In this document: positions 2,452 through 63,731 of the stretch, piece by piece
Numbering within the stretch: the stretch's first letter is position 1
Layout of the letters: the number at the start of each line of letters is the position of its first letter
Source: an uncultured Candidatus Saccharibacteria bacterium
GTDB lineage: Bacteria; Patescibacteriota; Saccharimonadia; Saccharimonadales; JBBQAJ01
NCBI GenBank assembly: GCA_964593805.1
Contig: CAZQHP010000001.1
Location: forward strand, 91-64,090
Reading direction: 5' to 3'
DNA: 64,000 bases
Notes under the pieces: generated by a model
Told to the model about the DNA's origin: nothing
The model's database searches: none
The model's input: the letters and a program-made list of their open reading frames with translations, nothing else
Made by a program: the position numbers and the translations under genes

Positions 2452-2484
<33 letters not shown>

Positions 2485-2509
2485 TATGAAAAACCATGTT
2501 TTTCATGTG

Positions 2510-4120: not shown

Positions 4121-5160
4121 TCTTGTCTCTCCGCTAGCCCGGCCGCTACGCCAAAGTGGTTAGATAGCGCCAGTAGTTCGTTTTGGCGATCGGCAGAAAA
4201 AGACACATTTCGCCAAGCGTTGCCTATTTCAACGCTAGCGCCGAATTTGTTAGCTATGTACAACGGAAACTCGGGCAAAGCAGATGCGCCGCCCGTTACA
4301 ATAATTCGGTCCAGTTTGGCGTTGTCTCCATAGCGCTTCTGGAAAAACTTTATGGACTTGTCTATTTCTGACATTAGTAAGTCTACTGTGCCAATTATTG
4401 CTTGGTAGATCTGGCCCTCCAGCTTGTCTTTGGACACGCCAAATTTAAATACAAACTGTTCGGCTTGTTTCTGGTCAATGTTTAGGTTTTGCATGGCTGA
4501 TTTTATGATGGCATCGGTACCAGTTGGGATAGAACGCGTCAGGCGTGGCGCGCCGTTCATTGCTACTACCATGTCGGTAGACAAGCTGCCCACGTCCACT
4601 ACCATCTGGGCTGTTGTGGCATCCGGTGCCAGAATTGCCCGGACTAGCGCCAAGTTGTCCGGCTCAAAAGCAATTACATTCAAACCAATTGCTTCCAGCA
4701 TGTCCAGACGTGCTTCCGCGAATTCGTTGCTTACGCTGGTGAGCAGGACCTCTACTTTGTTTTTGTCTGCCGGCGAATCGCCTATCTGAGCCCAATCAAG
4801 CGTGGCGTCCCCGATTGGCGTAGGAATTAGCGATTCGGCTTGGTACTGTATGGTTTTGGCTAGTTCCCCTGGGTCTAATCTGTCAAAATCCGCTACGGTG
4901 GTAAATACGCGCTGCGAAGGTAGACCAACTACAACGTTTCTGGTGGTTATTCGGGCTTGGGAAAGCAATTCTTGGAGATTATCAACCAATTTTTGCTGGT
5001 CTGCCTGCGCGTCAGATTGGGCAATTTTGACATCGATTGGGACGTAACCGTAACGTACCAGGTTTTTTACCGGCCCGCTCCCCTGTAGCTGCACGATTCG
5101 GATAGCAGTAGTGCCAATGTCCAGCCCAAAAAAATCAGATACCCCACTCAGTAGACTCAT
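4117..5160 (-). CDS. pilM: PilM, actin-like ATPase of the type IV pilus assembly platform
   Basis: GLDIGTTAIRIVQL phosphate-1 motif and ..IIVTGGASALPEF.. The ORF-track GTG at 5172 abuts a TATAGT -10 box, so the ATG at 5160 is preferred. Confidence 0.85.
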   Translation of the reverse strand: MSLLSGVSDFFGLDIGTTAIRIVQLQGSGPVKNLVRYGYVPIDVKIAQSDAQADQQKLVDNLQELLSQARITTRNVVVGLPSQRVFTTVADFDRLDPGELAKTIQYQAESLIPTPIGDATLDWAQIGDSPADKNKVEVLLTSVSNEFAEARLDMLEAIGLNVIAFEPDNLALVRAILAPDATTAQMVVDVGSLSTDMVVAMNGAPRLTRSIPTGTDAIIKSAMQNLNIDQKQAEQFVFKFGVSKDKLEGQIYQAIIGTVDLLMSEIDKSIKFFQKRYGDNAKLDRIIVTGGASALPEFPLYIANKFGASVEIGNAWRNVSFSADRQNELLALSNHFGVAAGLAERQE

Positions 5161-5297
5161 AATTGCTTTCACTATACCATAAGCTTTTTACAGTTACCAT
5201 CGTAAAACTATGAGCAGAATTTTCAAATAGCAATTTTCAATTTTCCAGATCGTAGTAGTTAGTTTTCATTGTCTGGTATCTGATATTTGAAAATTGA

Positions 5298-11476: not shown

Positions 11477-12568
11477 ATGAGTTTATCAATCGGGATTGTC
11501 GGGTTGCCAAATGTCGGTAAGTCTACGCTGTTTAATGCGCTGACAGACGGTGATATTCTGGCTGCCAATTATCCTTTTGCAACCATTGAACCAAATACTG
11601 GCATTGTGCCCATACCAGACGAACGGCTGCAAAAACTGGCAGATGTATACAAGACAAAAAACATCGTCCCCGCGACGGTTACATTTGTAGACATTGCCGG
11701 CCTGGTTGCCGGCGCCAGCCAAGGCGAAGGCCTGGGCAACCAATTTCTAGCAAATATTCGTAGTTGCAATGCCGTCTGCCATGTTGTCCGAGCTTTTACG
11801 GACGATAATGTCCTGCATGTTGACGCCAAACATAATCCTCAGAAAGATATCGAGGTTATTAATACCGAGCTGGCGCTCGCGGACCTCCAGACCGTAGAAA
11901 AACGCTTGCCCCAAAGCGAAAAAATGGCCAAAGCTGACCCCAAACTCAAGCCCCAGGTAGATGCACTTCTCTGGGCACGAGATATCCTAAACGACAGCGT
12001 GCCTTTATTTGCAGCTCCCTCACGACTTGCAGCTCACGACTTGCTTCTTCAGGAGCTTCAGCTCCTGACGGCAAAGCCGACTATATATTTATTTAACGTA
12101 GATGAAGAAACGCTGGCCGATGACGCCAAAAAATCTCAGCTGGCTCAGCTAGTCGCACCTGCGGAAGCAGTTTTTGTCTGTGCAAAGTTAGAAAGCGAAC
12201 TAAAAAGCCTGGACACTGCAGACCGCGTAGAATTGCTAGGCAGCTATGGGGTTCAAGAATCCGGGCTGGTCCAATTAACCCACGCCGCCTACGATACGCT
12301 CGGCCTGCAGAGTTTTCTGACTGCCGGCGAAAAAGAAGTCCGGGCCTGGACAATCCCAAAAAGTGCAACCGCTCCGCAAGCCGCCGGCGTAATTCATGGC
12401 GATTTTGAGCGCGGCTTTATAGCCGCCCAAATTGTAGATTATGATGACCTGATAACGGCTGGTTCAGAAGCGGCCGCTAGGAGCTCTGGCAAAGTACGCA
12501 CCGAAGGCAAAGATTACGCAATGCGCCCCAACGATGTAGTAGAATTCCGTTTCAACGTATCAAAATAG
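11477..12568 (+). CDS. ychF: Ribosome-binding ATPase YchF
   Basis: GIVGLPNVGKSTLFNALT P-loop, ..VDIAGLV.GAS.GEGLGN.FL.., and a C-terminal TGS-like ..DFERGFI.A.. Confidence 0.95.
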   Translation: MSLSIGIVGLPNVGKSTLFNALTDGDILAANYPFATIEPNTGIVPIPDERLQKLADVYKTKNIVPATVTFVDIAGLVAGASQGEGLGNQFLANIRSCNAVCHVVRAFTDDNVLHVDAKHNPQKDIEVINTELALADLQTVEKRLPQSEKMAKADPKLKPQVDALLWARDILNDSVPLFAAPSRLAAHDLLLQELQLLTAKPTIYLFNVDEETLADDAKKSQLAQLVAPAEAVFVCAKLESELKSLDTADRVELLGSYGVQESGLVQLTHAAYDTLGLQSFLTAGEKEVRAWTIPKSATAPQAAGVIHGDFERGFIAAQIVDYDDLITAGSEAAARSSGKVRTEGKDYAMRPNDVVEFRFNVSK

Positions 12569-12620
12569 CTGTTAGCTGTTAGCTGTTAGCTGTTAGCTGT
12601 TAGCTGTTAGCTGTTAGCTA
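12567..12620. repeat. Tandem heptanucleotide array (AGCTGTT) x7.7 filling the whole convergent intergenic spacer
   Basis: Direct reading. The array begins within the ychF TAG stop and ends 2 nt before the stop of the convergent gene at 12623. Confidence 0.97.
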
Positions 12621-16001: not shown

Positions 16002-16023
16002 ACAAAATTTCTCCGAAATTTTG

Positions 16024-16058
16024 AGCTATCAGCTGTCAGCTGTCAGCTCTTAGCTAGT
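16024..16058. repeat. Degenerate tandem heptamer array (AGCTNTC-like) x5
   Basis: agctatc agctgtc agctgtc agctctt agctagt, between the ssb stop and the efp start. Confidence 0.9.
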
Positions 16059-26865: not shown

Positions 26866-26894
26866 ACTTTAGCAATTTCTTACTTGTTTGTCAA
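26866..26894 (-). promoter_or_regulatory. Putative promoter, TTGACA-N17-TAAAGT
   Basis: Reverse complement reads TTGACAaacaagtaagaaattgcTAAAGT. It overlaps the truB 3' end. Confidence 0.45.
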
Positions 26895-27614
26895 TGTTTT
26901 GGAGAAATCTATCTCTGTTGGTGACTGTGCATATGATACGTCAAATTCGCCTACTTGGGTGCGGCGGAGGGCGGTCATGTAGGCGCTAGTTCCTAGTTCT
27001 TTGCCTATATCTTCTACCAAACTGCGGATATACGTGCCGGAAGAAACTTTGGCGGTGAATTTCACCTCTGGATATGCATAATCCACATCAGAAATGCTGT
27101 AAATCGTCACCCTTCGAGGCTCAAGCACCACTTCTTTGCCCTCTCTGGCTAATTTGTAAGCCCGTTGGCCATTTACTTTGACGGCGCTGAACTTGTGCGG
27201 CGTTTGCATGATTTCGCCCTGGAACGACCCCAAGACTGCCATAAAAGCTTTTTCTGATGGTTTTTCACCAGATACAATGGTCTTTTCACCCTCTTCATCG
27301 CCAGTTGTGCTGGTTTGGCCCAGTTTCATAGTCACTTCGTATACTTTGTCTAGTTTGCTAAACTCATGCGCCCGTTTGCAGTAACTGCCAAGGAGAATTA
27401 CCAAAAGTCCGGTTGCGAGCGGATCCAGAGTGCCGGCGTGGCCAACCTTCACCTTCCGTGAAGGAGTACTGAGTCGAGAGTCCTGAGTCGAGAGTTTTTC
27501 GCTCCGTACTCCGTACTCTGTACTCTGTGACTGGCGCAAAAGTCCCCTGACTTTTGCGACTACGTCAAACGACGTCCAGCCAGACGGCTTATCAATCAGT
27601 AAAATTCCATCCAC
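26880..27614 (-). CDS. truB: tRNA pseudouridine-55 synthase TruB, with a repeat-encoded insertion
   Basis: GTG start. GILLIDKPSGWTSFDVV.. and catalytic ..GHAGTLDPLATGLLVILLG. An extra ~21-24 aa lies between these motifs. Confidence 0.92.
   Translation of the reverse strand: MDGILLIDKPSGWTSFDVVAKVRGLLRQSQSTEYGVRSEKLSTQDSRLSTPSRKVKVGHAGTLDPLATGLLVILLGSYCKRAHEFSKLDKVYEVTMKLGQTSTTGDEEGEKTIVSGEKPSEKAFMAVLGSFQGEIMQTPHKFSAVKVNGQRAYKLAREGKEVVLEPRRVTIYSISDVDYAYPEVKFTAKVSSGTYIRSLVEDIGKELGTSAYMTALRRTQVGEFDVSYAQSPTEIDFSKTLTNK
27469..27531. repeat. 7-nt-periodic tract inside truB (9 units, 63 nt)
   Basis: ctgagtc gagagtc ctgagtc gagagtt tttcgct ccgtact ccgtact ctgtact ctgtgac. It encodes ..SQSTEYGVRSEKLSTQDSRLS.. 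Confidence 0.9.
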
Positions 27615-29860: not shown

Positions 29861-30325
29861 GCACGCTTCGCTCGCTTAAACCATACTTTTTGGTCAGCAA
29901 AAAGTAAGCAAAAACTGACGCCATGGGCTGCGAAACGTGACTGAATCATCTACCATGCATATGAGGCGCCAGCAGAATAGCGACTTCGTAGTTCTTTGGG
30001 ATTACTCACGTATGCTGCTGGCTCTACTCCTCATATACCTGAGATGATGCAATCAGTTTCTTGAATGGCGGGAACAAGCAGAGCCCCGCAAGCGAGCCAA
30101 ATCTATAATCCGCCGGAGGCGGATACCTTGGAGGCTTCTCAGACTCTGGAGGTTCCTGAAAAGCGTAGTGTCAAAGCTACCATTTGAGAGAGGAGTCCAC
30201 CGCGGCGGACGACGAGCATGGTAGCGCTTGACGACGAAGCTTATCAAGAACTGGAAGGGCTGTCATTTCTTTGGTTACTTTCTTGTTGACACAAGAAAGT
30301 AACTCAGCAACTGAGCCGAACGCGC
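29861..30325. ncRNA. Copy A of a two-copy ~465-nt non-coding, helix-rich element (candidate structured RNA or non-autonomous mobile element; class unknown, strand undetermined)
   Basis: Aligns with 45531-46005 in conserved blocks separated by non-homologous but self-complementary segments. No conserved ORF. It lies between the convergent rpsT and holA stops. Confidence 0.55.
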
Positions 30326-31252: not shown

Positions 31253-32161
31253 TCACGCCTTTTGGCATTTGGGGCAAGTGTGGGTGCCGCGGCCGGCTAC
31301 TCGAGTCTTTGTAATTATTGTACCGCAGCGTGGACACTCTTGACCCTCACGGCGGAATACACGCGCAAAACTGAGGTAGCTGCCCTTTTTGCCTTCCGCA
31401 TTCACATAATTTCTATCTGTTGAACCGCCTTTTGCTATAGCTAGATTTAGGACAAATTGAAGTTTGGTAAATAATTTGTATATTTTGACTTTGGAAAGAT
31501 TTTTTACCAATGTAGCCGGGTGGATTTTGGCGTCCCATAGGCTTTCGTCGGCGTATATATTGCCTACGCCCGCTATCACGGTTTGGTCCAAAAGTGCGGC
31601 TTTAATATTTGTATTCGGCCGGCGTAAAAGCCGCTCCTGAAAGGCTTTTTTGGTAAAATCAGCAGCCAATGGCTCGGGTCCAACGCGTCTAAAAAAGTCT
31701 ATGTTTGGCACCTCGATGGTGGGCAAAAGTTTCATCCAGCCAAATTTGCGCTGGTCGTTGAAGAAAAGTTCGGAGCCGTCTGTGAAGGTAATAATTACCC
31801 TAGTTGATTTGTCGGGTAAGCCTCCGACCAAAGATTCACTCGGGTGTCCAGCCCCAAACCTTTCTTCAGCTGTCAGCTGTCCGCTACTAGCTGTTAGCTT
31901 GTGCGCTTCGCGCACATAAACCATTTGTCCGGTCATTTTGAGATGACTCACGAGTGTGTGTCCGGAAGACAAATCAATGAGCAATATTTTTGCACGCCGC
32001 CGGACACCAATGATTTTGGAACCCACCAAAAACGCCTTTACGTCCGCCTCAGCGTTTGGAAATGATTTGGCCCAGTCGTGCGTAATGCCAGCAATGGCCT
32101 TACCAATAACAAATTTATTTAGTCCTGTTCGGACCGTTTCAACCTCAGGTAGTTCTGGCAT
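31253..32161 (-). CDS. mutM: Formamidopyrimidine-DNA glycosylase (Fpg/MutM), with a repeat-encoded insertion
   Basis: MPELPEVETVR N-terminus, H2TH region, and C-terminal zinc finger CPRCG...CPKCQ. Confidence 0.93.
   Translation of the reverse strand: MPELPEVETVRTGLNKFVIGKAIAGITHDWAKSFPNAEADVKAFLVGSKIIGVRRRAKILLIDLSSGHTLVSHLKMTGQMVYVREAHKLTASSGQLTAEERFGAGHPSESLVGGLPDKSTRVIITFTDGSELFFNDQRKFGWMKLLPTIEVPNIDFFRRVGPEPLAADFTKKAFQERLLRRPNTNIKAALLDQTVIAGVGNIYADESLWDAKIHPATLVKNLSKVKIYKLFTKLQFVLNLAIAKGGSTDRNYVNAEGKKGSYLSFARVFRREGQECPRCGTIITKTRVAGRGTHTCPKCQKA
31867..31901. repeat. Tandem heptamers inside mutM
   Basis: cagctgt cagctgt ccgctac tagctgt tagcttg. It encodes ..HKLTASSGQLTAE.. Confidence 0.9.
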
Positions 32162-37265: not shown

Positions 37266-37823
37266 TCAAATATATGCAGCAATCAGTAGCGAAAGGTCAA
37301 AAAGTAGAAAGTATGTCATCTGCACATAGAGATGTCGCTCTTTTGCTTTTGTAAAGGTCGCGAACACGGTAATTATTGTCATCTGGCAGGCCAATGCGAG
37401 CGCTACGAAAGCTCTTGCAATCACCGATAAGCCTGGAGATAGGAACAAAATGGTTAAAATTGGTACAAATAATAAGGATGCCCCATATGCGCAAAACGAA
37501 TGCACCGCTCCTTTCCATCCAGCTTTATCAGGAATAATCGCAGCCAATAAAAATCCAACGAAAGACAGACTTATGAGAACCTCATAAAGTATTGGCAGAT
37601 CAAATGTTGGTGCAATCCACTTAACTGCAAAAAGGTAAAATAGCGCAAAAACTACCGTCTCAACTAGCAGCATCATAATATAGGCTCCCTTATGAGCTGC
37701 TGCATGTCTGCTAATTGACATTGATTTATCGCCTCTCCAGTTGTAGAGAAGATAGGCAATAGATACCCATGCAAGTGCAAACGCAATAGGTCCGATAGTT
37801 TTATAAATTTCGGGCGGGTTCAC
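37266..37823 (-). CDS. Polytopic membrane protein, unknown function
   Basis: At least 5 hydrophobic segments. The GTG start overlaps the polA stop by 1 nt. The DNA looks AT-richer. Confidence 0.55.
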   Translation of the reverse strand: MNPPEIYKTIGPIAFALAWVSIAYLLYNWRGDKSMSISRHAAAHKGAYIMMLLVETVVFALFYLFAVKWIAPTFDLPILYEVLISLSFVGFLLAAIIPDKAGWKGAVHSFCAYGASLLFVPILTILFLSPGLSVIARAFVALALACQMTIITVFATFTKAKERHLYVQMTYFLLFDLSLLIAAYI

Positions 37824-40534
37824 TACAATTCGCCCCAGTTTTTGCCGGTGGTGGCGTCTACGGTTAGCTTTACAGGGAGTTTGTGGACGTTTTCCATGGT
37901 GTCTTTGAGTAGTTTGGCGGTCGCTTCGGCTTCTTTTTCATCACATTCTACAATTAGGGAGTCATGAATTTGCAGCAGAATGCGAGCTTCTCCCGCAGGA
38001 GCAGGAAGTAAGGAGTAGGAAGAAGGGTGGGCTGTATTTTTGCCTTGCTCCTTGCTCCTTGCTCCTTGCTCCGCAAAAGCATCTAGCTTTTGCTGGACGT
38101 GAACCATGGCTAGTTTCATGATGTCGGCCGCTGTTCCCTGGAACGGCACGTTTACGGCGGCCCGTATAGCGGATTCTCGTACGACGAAGTTGCTGGAGTG
38201 CACGTCTGGCGTGGGGCGGCGTCGGCCAAACAGCGTTTCCACGTAGCCGTCTTTGCGCGCCTGCTCTTTGACGGATTCTATGTAGCCCAACAGTTTAGGA
38301 CGGACTTCAAAGTATTTGTCTATAAAGTGCTTGGCTTGTTCGTATGTCATGCCGGTAGCGGCTACCAAACCGTGCGTGCTTAGGCCGTACATGACACCAA
38401 AATTCACTACTTTGGCATCGCGGCGCATATTTTTGGTCACGTCTTGCTCTTCTCTGTCATAAATCAGCGCCGCGGTGGCAGTATGGACGTCTACGTCGCG
38501 GTTAAACATGTCTATCAGGTTGTCGTCTCCGCACAAATAAGCCGCCAGGCGCAGTTCAAACTGGCTGTAGTCGGCGCTAACCAGCATTTTGCCCGGTCCG
38601 GCTACAAAAGCCGTACGGATTTGCCGGCCCAGATCTGTTTTGACAGGAATGTTTTGGAGGTTCGGGTCATTGGAACTCAGCCGGCCAGTTTGGGCTACTG
38701 TGAGCGCAAAGGTGGTATGGACGCGGGAGTTTTCGTCTACCATAGTCGGCAAAGTATCTACGTAGGTGTTTTTGAGCTTGGTGACTTCGCGGTACTGAGT
38801 TATGAAATCAATAATTGGGTGCGCTTCCCGCAGTTTGACCAGTTCGCTGGCGGCGGTTGAATAACCGGTTTTGCCTTTTTTGATATTGGCAGTAGGCAAA
38901 TTTAGTTTGTTGAACAATATATCTGCCAGCTGGGCTGGAGAGGCTATGTTAAACTCTTGGTCGGCGTAGCCGTAAATTTGTTGTTCAAGGTCGGAAACGG
39001 CGTCATTTAACTGTTCTGCCATGAGCCCTAGGTAGTTGGTATCCAGCTGTATGCCTTCGTATTCCATGCGCGCCAGCACGGGGATAACTGGAAATTCAAT
39101 GTCTTTGGCCAGCTTGGCAACTTTTGGCATACCAGCCAGATCTTTCGCTTGCTCCTTATGTAACATGGCGATTAAACCGATAATTTCTGATCCTCTTGCC
39201 GCGTATTCTTCGGTACTTAAATCTTCTATTGAACCCTCGAAACCAATGTCTTCAGCAGCGAGAGTTTGCAAAGAAACTTCTCTACGCAAGCTATTTATAA
39301 GGAAAGCGCCAACCATCACATCGTGCTCCACGTGCGGCAGCTTTATGCCCAGTCCAATCAGTACTTTCAAGGTGTTCTTTATGTCGTAGCCAATAACAGA
39401 GTTAAGGGTTGAGAGCAGAGGGTTGAGAGCTTTAGCCGATACCTTTGAAAGATCAATAGCGTATGTTTTCTTTCCATCCTTGCTTACAAGTAATATCAGA
39501 GGATTTTGACCGTGTTTACCAGCGGAGCGGCTGTCTATAAAAATGTTTTTTGCGTCTTTAAGATCAAGTTTTGCCAAATCAGCATCGCTGCTAATCAAAC
39601 TGCTGGCGCTGCCATTGTGCTCAAATACATTTCGTTCTTTATGTTGCTCTTGCAGCTGCATTATATCCGGCAGTTGGCGGACTAGGCTGCGGAATTCCAG
39701 TTTTTGCAAAATGTCACGGATGCGTTCGGGGTGGGCTTTGGTGCCGTCTACTTCTTTCAGGTTCAGTTTTATGGGCGCATCTGTCCATATGCTGGCCAGT
39801 TTTTTACTCAGGTACGCCATGTCTTTGCCAGCTTCTAATTTTTTGCGAGTAGTTTCTTTTATCAGCACCAGATTTTCATACACTTTGTCTAGTGTGCCGT
39901 ACGCTTTAAGCAATTCAATCGCACCCTTTTCGCCTATTCCAGGCACCCCAGGGATGTTGTCTGAACTATCGCCTTTTAGCGCTTTTAGATCCAGAAACTG
40001 TGAAGCGTTTATGCCGTATTTGGCCTCAAAACTTTCCGGATGAAACAGTTCTATGTTGCTGAGTCCTTTTTTAAGTGCATATACGCTCACGTGCCAGTCA
40101 ACCATCTGCAACATATCTAAATCAGACGTTACGAGCATGGTCTCAATGTCTTTTGAGGTTGCTTGTATAGCAAGAGTCCCCATAATGTCATCGGCCTCAT
40201 AATCATCCAGCTCATATAAAGGCCAGCCAAAAGCATCTAACAGGTCATGAAGTATAGGAATTTGTTCATAAAAATCTGGCGGCGGCGGTTTGCGCCCGGC
40301 TTTGTACTCAGGGTACAGTTCCAAGCGTTTGCGAATGTTGGTTTTGGGCTTGTCCCACGCCACGCAGACATAATCCGGCTTGAGACGTTTTATAACTTCT
40401 AGCGCCATAGTGGCAAAACCAAACACGCCGCCAGTGGGTGTACCGTCTTTGGTACTCAGATTTGGCATGGCATAGTAACCACGGTAAAAGACTGACTTGC
40501 CATCAATAATCGCTAGTTTTTTGCGCTCCGCCAT
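37823..40534 (-). CDS. polA: DNA polymerase I
   Basis: 5' nuclease domain (..DNIPGVPGIGEKGA..), a 3'-5' exo-like region, and polymerase motifs ..DYSQFELR.., ..RRDAKVVNFG..YG.., ..QIHDSLIVE.. Confidence 0.95.
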   Translation of the reverse strand: MAERKKLAIIDGKSVFYRGYYAMPNLSTKDGTPTGGVFGFATMALEVIKRLKPDYVCVAWDKPKTNIRKRLELYPEYKAGRKPPPPDFYEQIPILHDLLDAFGWPLYELDDYEADDIMGTLAIQATSKDIETMLVTSDLDMLQMVDWHVSVYALKKGLSNIELFHPESFEAKYGINASQFLDLKALKGDSSDNIPGVPGIGEKGAIELLKAYGTLDKVYENLVLIKETTRKKLEAGKDMAYLSKKLASIWTDAPIKLNLKEVDGTKAHPERIRDILQKLEFRSLVRQLPDIMQLQEQHKERNVFEHNGSASSLISSDADLAKLDLKDAKNIFIDSRSAGKHGQNPLILLVSKDGKKTYAIDLSKVSAKALNPLLSTLNSVIGYDIKNTLKVLIGLGIKLPHVEHDVMVGAFLINSLRREVSLQTLAAEDIGFEGSIEDLSTEEYAARGSEIIGLIAMLHKEQAKDLAGMPKVAKLAKDIEFPVIPVLARMEYEGIQLDTNYLGLMAEQLNDAVSDLEQQIYGYADQEFNIASPAQLADILFNKLNLPTANIKKGKTGYSTAASELVKLREAHPIIDFITQYREVTKLKNTYVDTLPTMVDENSRVHTTFALTVAQTGRLSSNDPNLQNIPVKTDLGRQIRTAFVAGPGKMLVSADYSQFELRLAAYLCGDDNLIDMFNRDVDVHTATAALIYDREEQDVTKNMRRDAKVVNFGVMYGLSTHGLVAATGMTYEQAKHFIDKYFEVRPKLLGYIESVKEQARKDGYVETLFGRRRPTPDVHSSNFVVRESAIRAAVNVPFQGTAADIMKLAMVHVQQKLDAFAEQGARSKEQGKNTAHPSSYSLLPAPAGEARILLQIHDSLIVECDEKEAEATAKLLKDTMENVHKLPVKLTVDATTGKNWGEL
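37994..38070. repeat. 7-nt-periodic tract inside polA ending in (CCTTGCT) x4
   Basis: ..gcaggaa gtaagga gtaggaa gaagggt .. ccttgct ccttgct ccttgct ccttgct. It encodes ..EQGARSKEQGKNTAHPSSYSLLPAPAGEA.. just upstream of polymerase motif C. Confidence 0.85.
39405..39432. repeat. 14-nt (2x7) direct repeat inside polA
   Basis: agggttgagagca gagggttgagagct. It encodes ..KALNPLLSTLNS.. Confidence 0.8.
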
Positions 40535-45530: not shown

Positions 45531-46005
45531 GCACACCTCGCTTGCTTAAACCATACTTTTTGGTCAGCAAAAAGTATGCAAAAACTGACGCCATGGGCCG
45601 CGAAACATGATTGTCCCCATAACCAGCCAACTGCTGCGCCGAAACGACTAAAGGCCCAAACTTTTATTTGGGATCAGTTTGGACGAGTTCCGGCTTGATT
45701 CAGCAGTTGTCTGAATGAGTGCATCAGTTTCTTGAATGGCGGGAACAAGCAGAGTCCCGCACCGCGGGACAAATTAAATAATCCGCCTATGGCGGATGCC
45801 ATGGTCTTGTTCAGGCTCTGGAAGTTCCTGATGACGGAGTTGTTAAAACTACCATTAGAGTGAGGAGTCCGCCGCGGCGGATGACGAGTATGGTGGTTTT
45901 GACAATGGAGACATCAAGAACTGGAAGTGGCTGTCGCTCTTTTTGCATACTTTTTCTTCGACAAGAAAAAGTATGGCGGGAAGTCCGCTGTGGCGGACGC
46001 CGAAA
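45531..46005. ncRNA. Copy B of the two-copy ~465-nt non-coding helix-rich element
   Basis: Homologous blocks shared with 29861-30325. It lies between the convergent stops of the 44815 gene and the yjbR-like gene. It has terminal hairpins with identical stems, CATACTTTTT/AAAAAGTATG. Confidence 0.55.
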
Positions 46006-50672: not shown

Positions 50673-52325
50673 CTACATCCTGTCTGGCGCGGGAATGTTG
50701 AGAAGTTCCAGACCGCTTTTTAGCGTGTCGGCATAAGCTTGAACTAAATTCAAACGGACAGCTTGGCGCGGGTCGTCCAGCACGCGGTTGTTTTCATAAA
50801 AACGGTTAAAAACCTGCGCTAGTTCGTATAAATACGTGCAGACATGATGCGGCATGAGTTCCTGTACTGCCCTGTCCACCACCTCTGTATATTCACCAAT
50901 CTTCCTTAGCAGGCTTCTTTCATCCTTTTGGAGTTTTTCTGAAGACTTTGGACTTTGGACTTTGGACTTAGCGAGAATACTTCTCGCCCTGGCGTGCGCG
51001 TACTGCAGGTACGGCCCGCTGTTGCCCTCCAGTGCCACTGATTCTGCCGGATCGTAAATGACGTCTCCGCCCATGCGATTTTTTAATAGTGCGTATTTGA
51101 CTGCCGCCAGCGCCGTAGTTTCGTCGTCTTTGCCAGTAGTTTTTTGGTTGGCCGCGCGAGCCGCGTCAATCACATCAATGGCGCGCAGTATGTTGCCCTT
51201 GCGGCTGCTCATTTTCACACCGCCAGCCAGTTTCACCATGCCGTGAGTTAGGTGCGTAGTGGCTGTTGACAATTCAGGTGCGAATTGCTCAATCGCTTTT
51301 AACACCACAGCCATGTACTGGGCTTGTTCGTTGCCGGTTATGACGACTGATTTGTCAAAGTTGTAGTCGCGCTTTTTGGCCACAATCAGCCCCACATCTT
51401 TGGCTTCGTAGGTTGGCAAACCTTCGGAGTTTACAAAAACGCGAGTGTGCAAATCATGGTCTTCGCCTTTGAACACAATTGCGCCCTCCGACTCCACGAA
51501 AACATCTGGAATGTGCTCTTTAACAGTTTGGACCCCCAGCTCTGCGACTTCGCTTTCCGGGTAGTATTTTTCAAAACTACTGCCTATGCGCTTATAGAAT
51601 TCGTCGAAATAGTCATAGCTCCACTGCCGGCATGTCCAATATATTTGCGCAAACGCAGATTCTTTGTCGCCGTCTGCGTGCAGCTGGTATACGCGTTTAT
51701 TCAGTGTGGTAATTTCGGCCTTTGCGGCTTCGTTTTCATCGTAAGCAGTCGTACCTTCTATGTAAGCCTTGGTCAGCCATTCGGCATGGTTTTCAATCGC
51801 CTTGAGCCCGTCTGGATTTTCACCGCCGAGCTCTCGCAAAATGGCCCACATGGTTTTGCCAACGTGCAGACCAACATCGCCGCCAAAGTTCACGCGGTGG
51901 ACTTTGGCTCCGGCCGCTTCCAACAAAGATGCTATCCCGTCCCCCACCACGGAGGTATACAAATGGCCAGCATGCAGGACTTTGAATGGGTTCGGGTCGG
52001 AATATTCCGCTACGACTTCTTTGCCTGCCAAGACGCGCATTGGCTTCTGAGCCGCAAGCTTAGTCAGAGCTGCGTCTGTCAACGTTAAATTTATAAACCC
52101 CGGGCCAGCGATATCTGCGGACACAATGCTGGGATGTTTCAGAGCCGATTTAAGGGTTTCGGCAACTTCGCGCGGGTTTTTATCCAGCCGTTTGCCCAAC
52201 TGAAGGGCAACGCTGGTAGCGTAATCGCCGAATTGCTCGTCGGGGCGCGTCAAATCCACCTCAACGTCAACGTTGAACAATTCTTTGCACGCCCCCGCGA
52301 TTGCCTGCTCCAGTTCTTGCCTCAT
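50673..52325 (-). CDS. argS: Arginine--tRNA ligase, with a repeat-encoded insertion
   Basis: ..YSDPNPFKVLHAGHL.. (HIGH-type), ..MSSRKGN.. (KMSK-type), and a C-terminal DALR anticodon-binding region. Confidence 0.95.
   Translation of the reverse strand: MRQELEQAIAGACKELFNVDVEVDLTRPDEQFGDYATSVALQLGKRLDKNPREVAETLKSALKHPSIVSADIAGPGFINLTLTDAALTKLAAQKPMRVLAGKEVVAEYSDPNPFKVLHAGHLYTSVVGDGIASLLEAAGAKVHRVNFGGDVGLHVGKTMWAILRELGGENPDGLKAIENHAEWLTKAYIEGTTAYDENEAAKAEITTLNKRVYQLHADGDKESAFAQIYWTCRQWSYDYFDEFYKRIGSSFEKYYPESEVAELGVQTVKEHIPDVFVESEGAIVFKGEDHDLHTRVFVNSEGLPTYEAKDVGLIVAKKRDYNFDKSVVITGNEQAQYMAVVLKAIEQFAPELSTATTHLTHGMVKLAGGVKMSSRKGNILRAIDVIDAARAANQKTTGKDDETTALAAVKYALLKNRMGGDVIYDPAESVALEGNSGPYLQYAHARARSILAKSKVQSPKSSEKLQKDERSLLRKIGEYTEVVDRAVQELMPHHVCTYLYELAQVFNRFYENNRVLDDPRQAVRLNLVQAYADTLKSGLELLNIPAPDRM
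50944..50971. repeat. Tandem heptamers (GACTTTG) x3 plus one degenerate unit inside argS
   Basis: gactttg gactttg gactttg gacttag. It encodes ..KSKVQSPKS.. Confidence 0.95.
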
Positions 52326-61342: not shown

Positions 61343-62629
61343 TTATCTAGCTTTGACTAGGAGTTTGCGGGCGATTTGGCGTTCGTCCCATGGGACTAGT
61401 TTTCCGCCCAGGTTGCGGCTGTCTTGGTGGCCTAAGCCTGCGAGTATTACCAGGTCGCCTTTTTTGGCTTCTTGGAAAGCCGTTTTGATGGCTTGCCTGC
61501 GGTCGGCTATCACCTGGGTTTTTTTCTGGCCTTTGGCGATTTCTATGCCGGCGTAAACGGCCCTACGGATGGCTTCCGGGTCTTCTTTGTAGGTTTCGTC
61601 ATCTGTTAGGTAAATTTTGTCAGCGTGTTTGGCGGCAATTTCACCCATAATTGGCCGTTTGCCGCGGTCGCGGTCGCCAGTGGCGCCAAAAACCAAGCTG
61701 ACTTTGCCAGCAGCCGCCTGCCGGGCAGCTTCCAGCACTTTGGCCAGGGCGTCAGGCGTGACGGCGTAATCAACCCACACCGTAAACGGCTGGCCGGCGT
61801 CTATGCTTTCCATCCTGCCGGGCACGAGCTTCAGCCCTGCCAAGCCTTTGGCAATAGCCGGCGGCTTAAGCCCCAGCAGTAGCCCCACGGCGGCGGCGGC
61901 GCTGGCGTTATAGACGTTAAACAACCCGGTTAGCTGGATCCGGAGATCAAGCGGTTTTTCGCCGTTCATCAGCTGCCAGCTCATGCCTTTTTTGTCTGGT
62001 TTGACCAAAGTAATTCGTTCTGTGCTGTCCGGTCCCTGGCCATAGCTGACAACTTGCCCTGATGACTGCAGCATAAAGTAGTCATATTTGGCATCGTCGG
62101 CGTTGAGCACGCAAAAAGACGGTTTCATGTAGTCGTTGAACAGCCGGGCTTTGGCCGCCGCGTAGCTGTCCATAGTCCGATGATAATCCAGATGATCCTG
62201 GGTCAGATTAGTCAGCACGGCGAATTCTATGGGAATACCCAGCATTTTGTGCTGGTGCAGAGCCTGGCTGGGAGCCTCCAGCACCACAAAATCCACTTTT
62301 GAGCGTTTGGCATCGCGCAAAAAACGCAGCAATTGTTCGGTTGGCGGCAAGGTAAGGTGTGTTTTGTTGGGCTTGGCTTTGCCATTTACTTCAATAATGG
62401 CCGTTGTGTACATGGCGGTTTTGTGGCCGGCACTTTTGAGCATTTCATTTATAAAACAGCAGGTGGTGGTCTTGCCATTGGTTCCCGTAACCGCAATTAC
62501 CCGCAGGCCTTTGGCTGGAAAGCCAAACCGGGCCTGCAAACTGTAAATCCGGCCTTTGCGATAGCCTTCTTCGGCTAATCGTATGCCTTTGACTGGGAGA
62601 ACTTTGCGAACAAGTTTCTTTGGATCCAT
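61343..62629 (-). CDS. murE: Mur ligase family protein, MurE-like (short N-terminus)
   Basis: ..VIAVTGTNGKTTT.. P-loop, ..LEAPSQAL.., and a C-terminal ..GATGDRD..KRP.MG.. No DNPR motif was seen (..TDDETYKEDP..). The start is uncertain (ATG 62629 preferred; the ORF-track start would overlap tsaD). Confidence 0.75.
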   Translation of the reverse strand: MDPKKLVRKVLPVKGIRLAEEGYRKGRIYSLQARFGFPAKGLRVIAVTGTNGKTTTCCFINEMLKSAGHKTAMYTTAIIEVNGKAKPNKTHLTLPPTEQLLRFLRDAKRSKVDFVVLEAPSQALHQHKMLGIPIEFAVLTNLTQDHLDYHRTMDSYAAAKARLFNDYMKPSFCVLNADDAKYDYFMLQSSGQVVSYGQGPDSTERITLVKPDKKGMSWQLMNGEKPLDLRIQLTGLFNVYNASAAAAVGLLLGLKPPAIAKGLAGLKLVPGRMESIDAGQPFTVWVDYAVTPDALAKVLEAARQAAAGKVSLVFGATGDRDRGKRPIMGEIAAKHADKIYLTDDETYKEDPEAIRRAVYAGIEIAKGQKKTQVIADRRQAIKTAFQEAKKGDLVILAGLGHQDSRNLGGKLVPWDERQIARKLLVKAR

Positions 62630-62651
62630 CCCTCCTAGTATACTTGCTCTC

Positions 62652-63731
62652 ATGATAATTCTTGGCATAGAAACCAGCTGTGATGAAACGGCTTGCGGGA
62701 TTGTGCAGAACGGCAAAAAACTTTTGGCAAATGCAGTGCTTTCCAGCATGGATTTGCATGCCGTATACGGCGGCGTAGTCCCGGAAATCGCCGCCAGAAG
62801 CCACATTGAAGCGATTATCCCTGTTATTCAGCAAGCTTTAGGGCAAGCAAACTGTACTTGGGACGACATTGACGGAATTGCGGTAACCTACGGTGCTGGG
62901 CTGGGCGGTTGCCTGCTGGTGGGCGTCATGACCGCCCGCACGCTGGCAATTGCCAAAAACAAGCCCATGTACGCCGTCAACCACGTTGAAGCGCACGCTT
63001 ATGCCAACTTCCTAACGGAAGTAGCTAACAGCTTACAGCTGACAGCTGACAGCTATAAATTACCGCATTCCGCACCTTCCTTTCCCATGTTAGGGCTAAT
63101 AGTCAGTGGCGGGCATTCGCAGCTGGTCCTCTGGCGCAATCACTTTGATTACACCTTGCTAGGGCAAACGCAAGACGACGCTATAGGTGAAGCGTTCGAC
63201 AAAGTCGCCAAAATACTTGGTCTCCCCTACCCTGGCGGCCCCAGTCTGGAGACATTTGCCAAAAACGGCGACCCAAATGCCTTTAGTTTCCCCAAAGCCA
63301 AGATGAGCAACAGATACGACTACTCATTTAGCGGCATCAAAACAGCCGTTTTGCGCGCTGCCCAGAAATTAATAGGTGAAAACCACGACTTCCCTTCCCA
63401 TAAGCTTTCAGAACGGCTCTCAGAGGCTCAGAAAGCAGACATTGCGGCCAGCTTCCAGCGTGTGGCCGTGGAAACAGTAGTAGACAAGACGTTACAGGCC
63501 TATGAGGAGTTCAATCCACGAAGCGTTGTCATCGGCGGCGGCGTAGCCGCCAGCCCGGAACTTCGCCGCCAATTAGCCGAACGCCTTCCCATCCCTATCG
63601 AATATACAGACATGAAACTATGCACCGACAACGGCGCCATGATAGCCACCCTCGGCTGCTTCAAAGCTATGAATAATCAAGAAAAAGCCGACCCCTACTC
63701 TCTAGAAATCGCCCCAAATTTATCAATGTAA
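62652..63731 (+). CDS. tsaD: tRNA N6-adenosine threonylcarbamoyltransferase TsaD, with a repeat-encoded insertion
   Basis: MIILGIETSCDETA.. and ..NHVEAH...VSGGHS.. The ATG at 62652 lies 7 nt after TATACT. Confidence 0.93.
   Translation: MIILGIETSCDETACGIVQNGKKLLANAVLSSMDLHAVYGGVVPEIAARSHIEAIIPVIQQALGQANCTWDDIDGIAVTYGAGLGGCLLVGVMTARTLAIAKNKPMYAVNHVEAHAYANFLTEVANSLQLTADSYKLPHSAPSFPMLGLIVSGGHSQLVLWRNHFDYTLLGQTQDDAIGEAFDKVAKILGLPYPGGPSLETFAKNGDPNAFSFPKAKMSNRYDYSFSGIKTAVLRAAQKLIGENHDFPSHKLSERLSEAQKADIAASFQRVAVETVVDKTLQAYEEFNPRSVVIGGGVAASPELRRQLAERLPIPIEYTDMKLCTDNGAMIATLGCFKAMNNQEKADPYSLEIAPNLSM
63021..63055. repeat. Tandem heptamers (ACAGCTG-type) x5 inside tsaD
   Basis: gtagcta acagctt acagctg acagctg acagcta. 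It encodes ..VANSLQLTADSY.. between the HxxxH region and the VSGGHS motif. Confidence 0.92.

What the first reader, a model, noticed from the sequence alone, without database searches (positions are those of the whole stretch)
37994..38070. About 11 heptamer units, ending in (CCTTGCT) x4, inserted next to polA polymerase motif C
Seen: a 7-periodic tract encodes ..EQGARSKEQGKNTAHPSSYSLLPAPAGEA.. immediately N-terminal to ..RILLQIHDSLIVE (motif C). Established: in Pol I family enzymes this region is a short loop. A second 14-nt duplication (39405-39432) lies in the exo-like domain. Finding such insertions in the replicative-repair polymerase suggests they are tolerated surface loops, or that they serve a function.
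Basis: partly seen in the sequence, partly recalled or inferred. Interest (0 to 1): 0.55.

Follow-up and report, generated by a model that had tools for sequence, protein, structure and literature searches.

The report
Heptamer-repeat hairpin insert in polA loop
A 28-codon stretch built from 7-base repeats sits in a dispensable surface loop of this Saccharibacteria DNA polymerase I; it is one of many such 7-base repeat tracts in this genome, most of which butt against small hairpins and four of which lie inside housekeeping genes.

Summary
Confirmed: (CCTTGCT)x4.3 is perfect at 38043-38072. It lies in frame in polA (37823-40534, minus strand), just upstream of motif C. Against Taq Pol I, 31 residues replace 3. 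Among 120 Saccharimonadales orthologues this segment is 39 aa against a mode of 11. AlphaFold models it as an extension of helix Q plus a disordered loop, with the core fold intact.

"Eleven units" is only partly right. The other half (37997-38027) is a degenerate inverted copy of the array. The second site (39405-39432) is a repeat but not an insertion.

The tract is not special to polA. Period 7 is the only enriched tandem period in the window, with 11 arrays in 64 kb. Four lie in housekeeping genes (polA, truB, tsaD, argS). Six abut a perfect hairpin (permutation P<5e-5) whose outer arm is native sequence and whose inner arm is its inverted copy. The same polA loop and the same truB site carry heptamer arrays of unrelated sequence in other Saccharimonadales.

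Best reading: a DNA-level slippage and fold-back process writes these tracts, and only in-frame, stop-free ones in permissive loops survive. A dedicated protein function is unlikely. I found no published description.

The parts
37823..40534 (-). polA, DNA polymerase I, 903 aa (5'-nuclease, inactive-looking exo-like domain, family A polymerase domain)
   Evidence: ORF. Pfam DNA_pol_A 5.4e-138, 5_3_exonuc_N 1.4e-49, 5_3_exonuc 8e-30. Taq Pol I 3.4e-154. AF2 model matches KlenTaq/Bst with TMt 0.82-0.90.
37988..38080 (-). Inserted segment, codons 819-849 (AFAEQGARSKEQGKNTAHPSSYSLLPAPAGE), where Taq has 3 residues
   Evidence: HMMER alignment to Taq splits at query 818/850 = Taq 773/777. Orthologue alignment. 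AF2 gives a helix through residue 831, then pLDDT<50 for 833-848.
38043..38072 (.). Perfect heptamer array, (CCTTGCT)x4.3 on the + strand = (GGAGCAA)n on the coding strand; encodes EQGARSKEQG
   Evidence: TRF 100% matches, score 60. 23/23 lag-7 identity. Absent as such from the closest relative L001 (27-nt gap in the alignment).
37997..38027 (.). Degenerate heptamer array, the inverted complement of the perfect array; encodes PSSYSLLPAP. It is homologous to (CTCACTT)x3.9 in relative L001.
   Evidence: TRF period 14, 88%. Inverted repeat I1, 30 nt, 73% complementary. Alignment with L001. TRF on L001 at 4678-4704.
38028..38042 (.). 15-nt spacer, the loop of the long hairpin
   Evidence: the repeat finder I1. 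MFE structures.
38073..38093 (.). Perfect small hairpin (8-bp stem, 5-nt loop) that abuts the array. Its outer arm is native coding sequence (QKLD) and its inner arm (AFA) is the inverted copy.
   Evidence: Hairpin scan. L001 has CAAGCGC-TGGAT-GCGCTTG at the same place, with two fully compensatory pair changes.
37982..37996 (.). Small imperfect hairpin on the other flank of the insert (GCGAG-CTTCT-CCCGC on the + strand). It is perfect (7-bp stem) in L001.
   Evidence: Sequence. MFE structures. L001 hairpin 4707-4723.
37958..37972 (-). Motif C, QIHDS (catalytic Asp858). Ser replaces the usual Glu.
   Evidence: Alignment to Taq QVHDE. H857, D858 and S859 are invariant in 46 orthologues.
39405..39432 (.). 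Second site: a 14-nt-period repeat in the exo-like domain (codons about 367-376, ALNPLLSTLN). No length change versus orthologues.
   Evidence: 12/14 lag-14 matches. (no insertion). The same codons carry heptamer arrays in L001 (GYTCTCA)x3, L038 (AGCTATC/AGCCATC)x5 and L029 (GTAACCY)x4.
27446..27558 (.). Same module in truB (CDS 26880-27614, minus strand): hairpin 27446-27464, arrays 27464-27495 and 27502-27525 in inverted orientation, hairpin 27535-27558. This is a 26-aa insert just before the catalytic GHAGTLDP.
   Evidence: TRF. Fold z -2.5 and -3.1 as DNA, -3.7 and -4.0 as RNA. M. tuberculosis TruB alignment: query 26-55 against chain 30-33. Orthologues.
63007..63054 (.). Same module in tsaD (+ strand): 6-bp hairpin 63007-63022, then (AGCTNAC)x4.6 at 63023-63054 encoding VANSLQLTADS. 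About 16 aa are inserted just after the HxxxH metal motif.
   Evidence: TRF. Sequence. Translation. Alignment to T. maritima TsaD 6nak_B.
50944..50987 (.). (GACTTTG)x3.7 in argS (CDS 50673-52325, minus strand; encodes KSKVQSPKS), followed by the 7-bp hairpin 50971-50987. No net insertion versus E. coli ArgRS.
12566..12619 (.). Longest array, (TAGCTGT)x7.7. It starts with the stop codon of ychF and lies between convergent genes.
   Evidence: It is the second most stable 110-nt fold in the window.
16003..16056 (.). Intergenic (ssb-efp): 9-bp hairpin 16003-16023 abutting the (AGCTGTC)-type array 16024-16056
2452..2506 (.). Intergenic: (CCGCTGA)x4.7 at 2452-2484, then the 9-bp hairpin 2486-2506
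31866..31916 (.). Intergenic: (TCAGCTG)-type array 31866-31899, then the 7-bp hairpin 31900-31916

Best explanation
The tract is a lineage-specific, in-frame insertion of about 78-84 nt in polA. It was written by a DNA-level process, not shaped for a protein role.

Its anatomy on the coding strand is: a small perfect hairpin (native sequence plus its inverted copy); then a perfect (GGAGCAA)x4.3 array; then a 15-nt loop; then a degenerate inverted array; then a second small hairpin.

The same module, or parts of it, recurs across this genome and in some related Saccharimonadales, with a different 7-nt unit at each locus.

I infer that replication or repair synthesis stalls or folds back at a short hairpin. 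The 3' end then re-primes repeatedly in 7-nt steps, giving direct arrays, or switches to the complementary arm, giving inverted arrays and compensatory changes in the stems.

Arrays arise everywhere. Inside genes, only those that keep the frame, contain no stop codon in any of the three frames, and fall in permissive surface loops survive.

In Pol I the site is the end of helix Q, just before the beta-strand that carries motif C. There the extra 26-28 residues are translated as a helix extension plus a disordered loop.

Shown: the anatomy, the period-7 specificity, the hairpin association, recurrence at homologous sites, the loop's permissiveness, and the preserved fold. Inferred: the slippage and fold-back mechanism, and neutrality at the protein level.
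For: (1) Period specificity. There are 121 windows of 28 nt with at least 75% lag-7 identity, against 0-5 for every lag from 3 to 13. There are 6 perfect period-7 tracts, against at most 1 for any other period from 4 to 15.

(2) Hairpin association. 6 of 11 arrays lie within 1 nt of one of only 36 perfect hairpins with a stem of at least 7 bp. Random placement gave a mean of 0.48 and never reached 6 in 20,000 trials. A seventh array (tsaD) abuts a 6-bp hairpin. The same holds in relatives L001, L034, L035, L037 and L038.

(3) In polA, truB and tsaD the outer hairpin arm is conserved native coding sequence and the inner arm is its inverted copy inside the insert.

(4) The same polA loop carries arrays of unrelated units in three independent lineages: the window with L001, L037 (GTCGAAA/GTGAAAA)x4, and L038 (GAYTACA)x5. 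The same truB site carries (ACAGAGT), (TGAAAGT) or (AAAYAGG) arrays, each with its own matching inverted arm.

(5) Both strands fold equally well (polA z -5.1 sense, -4.3 antisense). This fits DNA-level palindromy rather than an mRNA structure.

(6) The perfect array is missing from the 85%-identical relative, whereas the degenerate arm is shared. The array is therefore young or being homogenised.

(7) Permissive loop. Segment length ranges from 10 to 39 aa in 120 orthologues. pLDDT is below 50 for residues 833-848 with flanks above 90. The fold matches KlenTaq/Bst with TMt 0.82-0.90.

(8) Arrays inside genes use units with no stop in any frame of the coding strand, while several intergenic units (TAGCTGT, CCGCTGA) contain stops (read).

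(9) The three most stable 110-nt folds in the 64-kb window are the polA insert, the (TAGCTGT) array and the truB module.
Against: The mechanism is inferred from anatomy only: no read-level polymorphism or experiment is available. Nothing explains why the step is 7 nt.

The central polA arms alone are only 73% complementary. Folded as DNA they are not significantly more stable than shuffles (z -1.7 and -1.5; 14-15 of 200 shuffles do as well).

Compensatory changes in the flanking stems, and persistence of the hairpin architecture in truB across lineages, could equally reflect selection on a structure.

Five arrays share an AGCT-core unit. That hints at a sequence preference, or at a bound factor, and pure slippage does not predict it.

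Three of the four genic arrays lie within about 10 residues of a catalytic motif. This is unexplained.

No length variant of this polA exists in the protein database cluster (1 member).
Confidence: 0.6

Rival explanations
1. The module is a selected cis-acting nucleic-acid element. Either the hairpins, as DNA cruciforms or RNA stem-loops, or the heptamer arrays, as iterated binding sites for a protein, do something such as pausing, processing, nucleoid organisation or recombination. The coding insertions are then the price of placing them there.
For: Hairpin architecture is kept at the same truB and polA sites while the sequences change, including two fully compensatory base-pair changes in the polA flanking stem between the window and L001. 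The polA module is the most stable fold in the 64 kb, with RNA z -5.1 and 0 of 200 shuffles as stable. Five arrays share an AGCT-core unit. In Geobacter metallireducens, elements of four heptanucleotide repeats, found both within and between genes, were annotated as putative regulatory elements (PMC2700814).
Against: Units differ completely between loci, and between lineages at the same locus, which is hard to reconcile with a sequence-specific binder. There is no strand asymmetry in folding. There is no Rfam match in the window. Locations are heterogeneous: inside four unrelated genes, and between convergent, divergent and tandem genes. Template switching within quasi-palindromes also produces 'compensatory' changes without selection (established knowledge on quasipalindrome mutagenesis).
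Confidence: 0.15
2. The insert is a functional addition to Pol I, analogous to the palm inserts of DNA polymerase theta. It would change how the enzyme handles primer termini or lesions.
For: Pol theta has a 33-aa Insert 3 in the palm whose deletion abolishes AP-site bypass (PMC9962433). From memory, not tested here, that insert lies just N-terminal to motif C. The window's insert is 31 aa and ends 9 residues before Asp858. The reading frame is maintained.
Against: The peptide is not conserved even in the 85%-identical relative, and most orthologues lack it. It is modelled as disordered. Its regularity is in 7-nt DNA units, not in amino acids. The same kind of tract sits in truB, tsaD and argS.
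Confidence: 0.08
3. The array is a contingency (phase-variation) locus. Gain or loss of one or two units shifts the frame and switches off the polymerase domain, while leaving the 5'-nuclease intact.
For: The unit length is not a multiple of 3. Simulated changes of 1 or 2 units in either direction give stops at residues 852-864, before motif C, while changes of 3 units stay in frame. The array is perfect, as in known slippage-prone tracts.
Against: Four units is short for efficient slippage. The same tracts sit in argS, tsaD and truB, where switching off would be harmful or lethal. No length variant is known: two assemblies are identical over 15.5 kb and the protein cluster has one member. Most arrays are intergenic.
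Confidence: 0.07
4. The insert is a copy of a small mobile palindromic element (MITE, or like the Rickettsia palindromic elements) that landed in frame.
For: It is an in-frame, roughly 80-110-nt, hairpin-forming insertion in housekeeping genes, as described for Rickettsia palindromic elements (papers listed, e.g. PMC1779305 and PMC10969869; cited from titles and established knowledge).
Against: There is no shared consensus between modules, since each has its own unit and its own stems. The outer hairpin arms are native gene sequence, not element termini. No target-site duplication is evident. (AGCTGTC)x4 is absent from viral contigs.
Confidence: 0.05
5. The tract is an assembly or sequencing artefact.
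For: Short tandem repeats can be mis-assembled. One relative's contig (L030) ends in a heptamer array.
Against: An ENA assembly and a Logan assembly agree base for base over 15,520 nt, including this array. The frame is preserved in four genes. Homologous arrays occur in MAGs from other samples.
Confidence: 0.01

Closest known systems
Heptanucleotide tandem repeats of other bacteria: STRR sequences of heterocystous cyanobacteria (from memory) and the four-heptamer elements of Geobacter metallireducens (PMC2700814)
   Same: They are tandem arrays of about 4-8 copies of a 7-nt unit scattered round a bacterial chromosome. In Geobacter they occur both within and between genes. Their function is unknown or only guessed.
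   Different: In those genomes, one or a few unit sequences are shared by all copies (GGACCGG in 49 Geobacter elements). Here nearly every locus has its own unit. Most arrays here abut a small perfect hairpin, and several come as inverted pairs. The host is a reduced-genome Saccharimonadales (CPR) bacterium.
Rickettsia palindromic elements (RPE): selfish palindromic DNA inserted in frame in protein-coding genes
   Same: They are hairpin-forming inserts of roughly 100 nt, translated as extra surface peptide in conserved housekeeping proteins without destroying them.
   Different: RPEs form sequence families with a recognisable consensus and behave as (former) mobile elements.
Templated and inverted insertions made by fold-back or snap-back synthesis at DNA breaks (e.g. 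yeast, PMC11724301, abstract seen; polymerase-theta end joining), and quasi-palindrome template-switch mutagenesis in E. coli (from memory)
   Same: They produce short inverted copies of the adjacent native sequence, repeated re-priming, and 'compensatory' changes that perfect a palindrome.
   Different: Those events are rare, single scars. Here they would have to recur with a fixed 7-nt step and be fixed at many loci. No enzyme is identified.
Insert 3 of DNA polymerase theta (PMC9962433)
   Same: It is a roughly 30-residue insertion in the palm of a family A polymerase.
   Different: The Pol theta insert is conserved and needed for lesion bypass. This one is hypervariable and predicted to be disordered. 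Positional equivalence was not tested here.
Simple-sequence contingency loci (e.g. Haemophilus and Neisseria tetra- to heptanucleotide repeats)
   Same: They are perfect tandem repeats inside an ORF whose unit length is not a multiple of three.
   Different: Those loci usually have many more copies, sit in surface or modification genes, and vary between strains. None of this is seen here.

Membership tests
Family A DNA polymerase (bacterial Pol I) | Pfam DNA_pol_A domain together with the N-terminal 5'-3' exonuclease domains | tested here: met
   PF00476 5.4e-138, PF02739 1.4e-49, PF01367 8e-30. Taq Pol I 3.4e-154.
Family A DNA polymerase (bacterial Pol I) | Catalytic motif C, HDE, with both acidic residues | tested here: inconclusive
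   The Asp is present (D858), but the following residue is Ser, not Glu (QIHDS). This is invariant in 46 Saccharimonadales orthologues. The consequence was not tested.
Family A DNA polymerase (bacterial Pol I) | Klenow/KlenTaq-like fold of the polymerase domain | tested here: met
   AF2 mean pLDDT 84.5. Foldseek TMt 0.82-0.90 to KlenTaq and Bst large fragments.
Heptanucleotide tandem-repeat families (cyanobacterial STRR, Geobacter four-heptamer elements) | Tandem arrays of a 7-nt unit, several copies, at many loci of one genome | tested here: met
   11 arrays in 64 kb. Period 7 is the only enriched period.
Heptanucleotide tandem-repeat families (cyanobacterial STRR, Geobacter four-heptamer elements) | One or a few unit sequences shared by all copies | tested here: not met
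   The units are CCTTGCT, GACTTTG, CCGCTGA, GAGTACG-like, AATTTTC, AGCGTAC and ATTTGCC. Only five loci share an AGCT-core unit.
Rickettsia-palindromic-element-like in-frame selfish DNA | In-frame palindromic insertion in conserved protein-coding genes | tested here: met
   polA, truB and tsaD.
Rickettsia-palindromic-element-like in-frame selfish DNA | Copies belong to a sequence family with a consensus, as evidence of mobility | tested here: not met
   There is no similarity between modules within the window or between lineages at the same site.
Phase-variable simple-sequence contingency locus | Repeat unit not divisible by 3, inside an ORF, so that copy-number change shifts the frame | tested here: met
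   Changes of 1 or 2 units in either direction give premature stops at residues 852-864.
Phase-variable simple-sequence contingency locus | Copy number varies within or between strains | not testable with these tools
   No reads are available. Two assemblies are identical. The protein cluster has a single member. The metagenome scan returned only a chance match.
Polymerase theta-type palm insert (Insert 3) | Conserved insert at a fixed position that is required for activity | tested here: not met
   The insert is not conserved among close orthologues and most of them lack it. It is predicted to be disordered. Positional equivalence to Insert 3 rests on memory only.

The most novel reading that the evidence does not exclude
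Some Saccharimonadales possess a so-far undescribed mutational system. In it, hairpin-primed template switching re-primes in 7-nt steps, a behaviour reminiscent of the templated insertions of polymerase-theta end joining. This system would continually write and rewrite hairpin-bracketed heptamer arrays into the chromosome, including permissive loops next to the active sites of essential enzymes (Pol I, TruB, TsaD, ArgRS). The polA insert would be a fresh product of that system. The system would be a source of protein loop innovation, and of genome instability, in ultra-small CPR genomes.
Probability: 0.3. Interest if true: 0.75.

Novelty: new variant of a known kind. Interest (0 to 1): 0.55.

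Why it matters
As a Pol I feature alone, the insert is a minor curiosity: one more variable surface loop.

The context is what matters. In a bacterium with a genome of roughly 0.8 Mb (this window's polA lies on a 776,748-bp contig), a single tandem period (7 nt) accounts for nearly all short tandem repeats. These arrays are physically tied to small hairpins built from native sequence plus its inverted copy. They have been fixed inside at least four housekeeping genes in 64 kb.

Homologous sites in other lineages carry arrays of unrelated sequence but the same architecture. So the arrays are either rebuilt continually or selected as structures.

Either way, this is a tractable natural example of how slippage and fold-back synthesis create new peptide segments in essential proteins. 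It could also help explain the long-unexplained heptamer repeats of cyanobacteria and Geobacter.

It is a practical warning as well. Such tracts break contigs (L030 ends in one) and mislead gene callers: the database's gene call for this truB (219 aa against the 244-aa ORF) starts about 25 codons downstream of the ORF start and so loses the conserved N-terminus.

Tried and rejected
(1) Strain-level length variation. The 90% protein cluster has one member. The Logan and ENA assemblies are identical.

(2) (AGCTGTC)x4 in viral contigs: no hit.

(3) Known RNA families and tRNAs in the window: none.

(4) Test for mRNA-level selection by strand asymmetry of folding: no consistent asymmetry.

(5) The central polA arms alone, folded as DNA, are not significantly more stable than shuffles (z -1.7 and -1.5). 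Significance appears only when the flanking hairpins are included and G-U pairs are allowed.

(6) Over-representation of the unit heptamers outside the arrays: none. Only CAGCTG is enriched, 40 observed against 14.7 expected.

(7) Heptamer arrays as a general Saccharibacteria trait: rejected. Most of the roughly 24 other Saccharibacteria loci fetched (the comparison set totals 464 kb) have none. They cluster in the window's close relatives and a few other lineages.

(8) Single origin of the long form of truB: a rough NJ/parsimony test gave 24 state changes against 38 for shuffled states. There is phylogenetic signal, but also much gain or loss, or tree noise.

(9) Literature: no paper links Saccharibacteria or CPR with heptamer repeats. 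The residue numbers of Pol theta Insert 3 could not be verified.

(10) My first ORF map missed tsaD, so I first counted the 63023 array as intergenic. This was corrected.


Full report
WHAT IS THERE

The window is a piece of a Candidatus Saccharimonadales (TM7, Patescibacteria) chromosome. The polA product is identical to a protein found on a 776,748-bp contig. Its nearest named homologues are all Saccharimonadales or Saccharibacteria Pol I. GC content is 48.7%.

The ORF 37823-40534 on the minus strand encodes a 903-aa DNA polymerase I. It has both 5'-nuclease domains and a family A polymerase domain. Only a sub-threshold match to the Pol I exo-like domain was found, as in Taq.

Tandem Repeats Finder reports (CCTTGCT)x4.3 at 38043-38072 with 100% matches. 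On the coding strand this reads (GGAGCAA)n and encodes EQGARSKEQG.

IS IT AN INSERTION?

Yes. HMMER aligns the protein to Taq Pol I in separate blocks that end at query residue 818 (Taq 773) and resume at query 850 (Taq 777). So 31 residues stand where Taq has three, directly before the strand that carries the motif C aspartate.

In 120 Saccharimonadales orthologues, the segment between the start of helix Q and LLQIHDS has a mode of 11 aa (62 sequences). A second class has 21 aa (31 sequences). The window, at 39 aa, is the longest.

An AlphaFold2 model built on 46 orthologues (mean pLDDT 84.5) continues helix Q to residue 831. It then gives pLDDT below 50 for residues 833-848, with flanks above 90. 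The model superposes on KlenTaq and Bst large fragments with target-normalised TM scores of 0.82-0.90.

From established Pol I structures, helix Q runs from the minor-groove contacts outwards. The loop after it therefore lies far from the DNA. I could not measure that distance with these tools.

Cut in register, the 77 nt from 37994 give four perfect units, two unrelated units, and about five units of a degenerate array (15/24 lag-7 matches at 37997-38027). That degenerate array is not a continuation of the perfect one. It is its imperfect inverted complement (30-nt arms, 73% complementary, 15-nt spacer).

The second feature (39405-39432) is a real 12-nt sequence repeated at 14-nt spacing. But polA has the same length there as its orthologues, so it is not an insertion.

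Oddly, the same codons carry heptamer-periodic DNA in three other lineages: (GYTCTCA)x3 in L001, (AGCTATC/AGCCATC)x5 in L038 and (GTAACCY)x4 in L029.

THE INSERT HAS A DEFINED ANATOMY

On the coding strand the order is as follows.
- A perfect small hairpin, CAAAAGC-TAGAT-GCTTTTG (window 38073-38093).
- The perfect array.
- A 15-nt loop.
- The degenerate inverted array.
- A second small hairpin (37982-37996, imperfect here).

The outer arm of the first hairpin is native coding sequence (QKLD, conserved in orthologues). The inner arm (AFA) is its inverted copy.

The closest relative (L001, 85% protein identity, from a different assembly) has CAAGCGC-TGGAT-GCGCTTG at that place. That is two fully compensatory base-pair changes that also change two amino acids. 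It also has a perfect 7-bp hairpin on the other flank.

L001 shares the degenerate arm, as (CTCACTT)x3.9. In place of the perfect array it has only two imperfect units; the alignment shows a 27-nt gap.

Folded as RNA, the 114-nt module has an MFE of -46 kcal/mol and z = -5.1 on the sense strand, and z = -4.3 on the antisense strand. The central arms alone, folded as DNA, are not significant (z about -1.6).

In a sliding 110-nt scan, this is the most stable segment of the whole 64 kb.

IT IS NOT SPECIAL TO polA

Period 7 is essentially the only tandem period in the window.
- There are six perfect period-7 tracts, against at most one for any other period from 4 to 15.
- There are 121 windows of 28 nt with at least 75% lag-7 identity, against 0-5 for every lag from 3 to 13.

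TRF at a low threshold gives 11 heptamer loci in 64 kb. Four are inside housekeeping genes.

1. polA, described above.

2. truB (26880-27614, minus strand). It has a roughly 26-aa insert directly before the catalytic GHAGTLDP motif, relative to M. tuberculosis TruB. The insert is made of two inverted heptamer arrays bracketed by perfect hairpins at 27446-27464 and 27535-27558.

3. tsaD (+ strand; I had first missed the gene). Here (AGCTNAC)x4.6 encodes VANSLQLTADS within a roughly 16-aa insertion just after the HxxxH metal motif, relative to T. maritima TsaD. A 6-bp hairpin abuts it.

4. argS. Here (GACTTTG)x3.7 encodes KSKVQSPKS with no net insertion relative to E. coli ArgRS. A 7-bp hairpin follows it.

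The other arrays are intergenic. Five of the eleven loci, four intergenic and the one in tsaD, share an AGCT-core unit (AGCTGTC, AGCTGAC, AGCTGTT), which is 6/7 self-complementary.

THE HAIRPIN LINK IS STATISTICALLY STRONG

The window holds 36 perfect hairpins with a stem of at least 7 bp and a loop of 3-8 nt. Six of the 11 arrays lie within 1 nt of one. With randomly placed arrays, the mean number within 10 nt was 0.48, and 6 was never reached in 20,000 trials. Seven of the 36 hairpins have a flank with lag-7 identity of at least 0.67, against a background 99th percentile of 0.52.

THE SAME SITES IN OTHER LINEAGES

The polA loop carries heptamer arrays of unrelated sequence in two further, independent lineages. 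These are (GTCGAAA/GTGAAAA)x4 in L037 (protein P0052) and (GAYTACA)x5 in L038 (P0029). Each has a perfect hairpin next to it.

At the truB site, 67 of 120 orthologues have the long form. The four whose DNA I fetched have different units, each with its own matching inverted arm and flanking small hairpins:
- ACAGAGT/ACGGAGT in the window;
- ACAGAGT in L034;
- TGAAAGT in L035;
- AAAYAGG in L036.

The RNA fold z-scores for these four range from -1.6 to -3.9 on the sense strand.

The phenomenon is restricted. Most of the roughly 24 other Saccharibacteria loci fetched have no such arrays; the comparison set, which also includes two Melainabacteria-type loci and one archaeal locus, totals 464 kb. 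The arrays cluster in the window's close relatives and a few other lineages.

HOW IT MOST LIKELY WORKS

The regularity is in 7-nt DNA units that read through all three frames. The peptides are hypervariable. Both strands fold equally well. The hairpins consist of native sequence plus an inverted copy.

I therefore take the module to be the product of a DNA-level process. Synthesis stalls at, or folds back on, a short hairpin. The 3' end then re-primes repeatedly with a 7-nt offset, giving direct arrays, or switches to the complementary arm, giving inverted arrays and stem 'correction'.

Selection then filters the products. Genic arrays keep the frame and use units without stops in any frame. 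Intergenic units such as TAGCTGT and CCGCTGA contain stops.

The perfection of the polA array, set against the divergence of the flanking gene from L001, implies that it is young or being homogenised.

The cumulative GC skew falls steadily across the window, and most genes are on the minus strand. Most arrays lie on the low-coordinate side of their hairpin. That is where lagging-strand synthesis would stall. The numbers are too small to test this.

The mechanism, the reason for a 7-nt step and the enzyme responsible are all inferred or unknown.

RIVALS

- A selected structural or binding element. This is the main alternative. It is supported by the compensatory stem changes and by the conserved architecture. 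It is weakened by the lack of any shared sequence, by the lack of strand asymmetry, and by the heterogeneous locations.
- A functional Pol I insert like Pol theta Insert 3 (33 aa in the palm, needed for AP-site bypass; PMC9962433). This is unlikely, because the peptide is not conserved and is predicted to be disordered.
- Phase variation. It is mechanically possible: changes of 1 or 2 units truncate the protein before motif C. But it is implausible, given only four units and the presence of the same tracts in argS and tsaD.
- A mobile palindromic element. This fails for want of a consensus.
- An assembly artefact. This is excluded by two concordant assemblies and by homologous arrays in other MAGs.

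COMPARISON WITH WHAT IS KNOWN

Heptanucleotide tandem repeats are known in heterocystous cyanobacteria (STRR; from memory). They are also known in Geobacter metallireducens, where 49 elements of four GGACCGG repeats lie within and between genes (PMC2700814).

In-frame palindromic inserts in housekeeping genes are known from Rickettsia (RPE; papers listed).

The present case combines traits of both, but it fails the defining 'shared consensus' feature of each. It also adds the tight link to hairpins built from native sequence.

I found no paper that links Saccharibacteria or CPR bacteria with heptamer repeats.

VERDICT

The 'tolerated loop' reading is right for the motif C insert and wrong for the second site.

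The interesting part is the genome-wide class of hairpin-associated heptamer arrays, of which the polA insert is one member. I rate it a new variant of a known kind, with interest 0.55.

Noticed in passing
window 27446-27558 (truB, CDS 26880-27614, minus strand); loci L034, L035, L036: truB carries a roughly 26-aa insert just before the catalytic GHAGTLDP motif. It is made of inverted heptamer arrays bracketed by perfect hairpins. 67 of 120 Saccharimonadales TruB orthologues have a hypervariable insert at exactly this site. Peptides such as SEKLKVESEK...LSTLDFQLST are what (AAGTTGA)n and its inverted complement would encode (the DNA was checked only for L035).
   Followed up: yes
window 63007-63054 (tsaD, + strand, reading frame of 62703): (AGCTNAC)x4.6 lies in frame in tsaD and encodes VANSLQLTADS. 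It is part of a roughly 16-aa insertion right after the HxxxH metal-binding motif, and a 6-bp hairpin abuts it. The tsaD 5' end also overlaps the long minus-strand Mur-ligase ORF 61343-62806, so that ORF's true start is probably further in.
   Followed up: partly
window 50944-50987 (argS, CDS 50673-52325, minus strand): (GACTTTG)x3.7 lies in frame in the linker before the DALR domain, followed by the 7-bp hairpin GCGAGAA-TAC-TTCTCGC. There is no net length change versus E. coli ArgRS.
   Followed up: partly
window 37958-37972 (polA motif C): Motif C reads QIHDS, with Ser in place of the near-universal second acidic residue (HDE in Taq, Klenow and T7). The Ser is invariant in all 46 aligned Saccharimonadales Pol I sequences.
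   Followed up: no
window 12566-12619, 16024-16056, 31866-31899, 63023-63054, 2452-2484; L036 10523-10550; L038 1195-1233: A recurrent unit family with an AGCT or CAGCTG core (AGCTGTC, AGCTGAC, AGCTGTT, AGCTATC; GCTGACC is one base away). Such arrays are 6/7 self-complementary. The family appears in several lineages and in both genic and intergenic positions. CAGCTG itself is 2.7-fold over-represented outside the arrays (40 observed against 14.7 expected).
   Followed up: partly
window 39405-39432 and the homologous codons in L001 3299-3328, L038 1195-1233, L029 11124-11157: The same roughly 10 codons of the polA exo-like domain are heptamer- or 14-nt-periodic in four lineages, with different units and no change in protein length. 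No hairpin lies next to them. I have no explanation for this.
   Followed up: partly
window 26880-27614 versus database protein P0121: The database's gene call for this truB is 219 aa, about 25 codons shorter than the 244-aa ORF. It therefore drops the conserved N-terminus (VDGILLIDKPSGWTSFDVVAKVRGL). The full ORF begins with GTG.
   Followed up: no
window 5218-5300: The (AATTTTC)x4 array at 5218-5245 is followed about 40 nt later by an inverted copy (..TTGAAAATTGATT..). Together they form the fourth most stable 110-nt fold in the window.
   Followed up: no
window 30274-30303 and 45946-45975: Two perfect hairpins with 13-bp stems and 4-nt loops. The one at 45946-45975 lies in an intergenic gap and looks like a terminator. 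Neither is associated with a heptamer array.
   Followed up: no
L036 2702-2729, 3099-3130, 9915-9944: An AT-rich sequence (TTTTAAATTTAAAATTCGAAATTTAAAATT) with 7- and 14-nt periodicity occurs three times in 20 kb of another Saccharimonadales genome. Two of the copies lie next to genes with the 23S_rRNA_IVP domain.
   Followed up: no
L030 11896-11931: The contig of the 82%-identical relative ends in a perfect (ACAGTAA)x4.3 array, so such arrays probably break short-read assemblies.
   Followed up: no
whole window: There is no tRNA, tmRNA or Rfam-level RNA gene in the 64 kb.
   Followed up: yes
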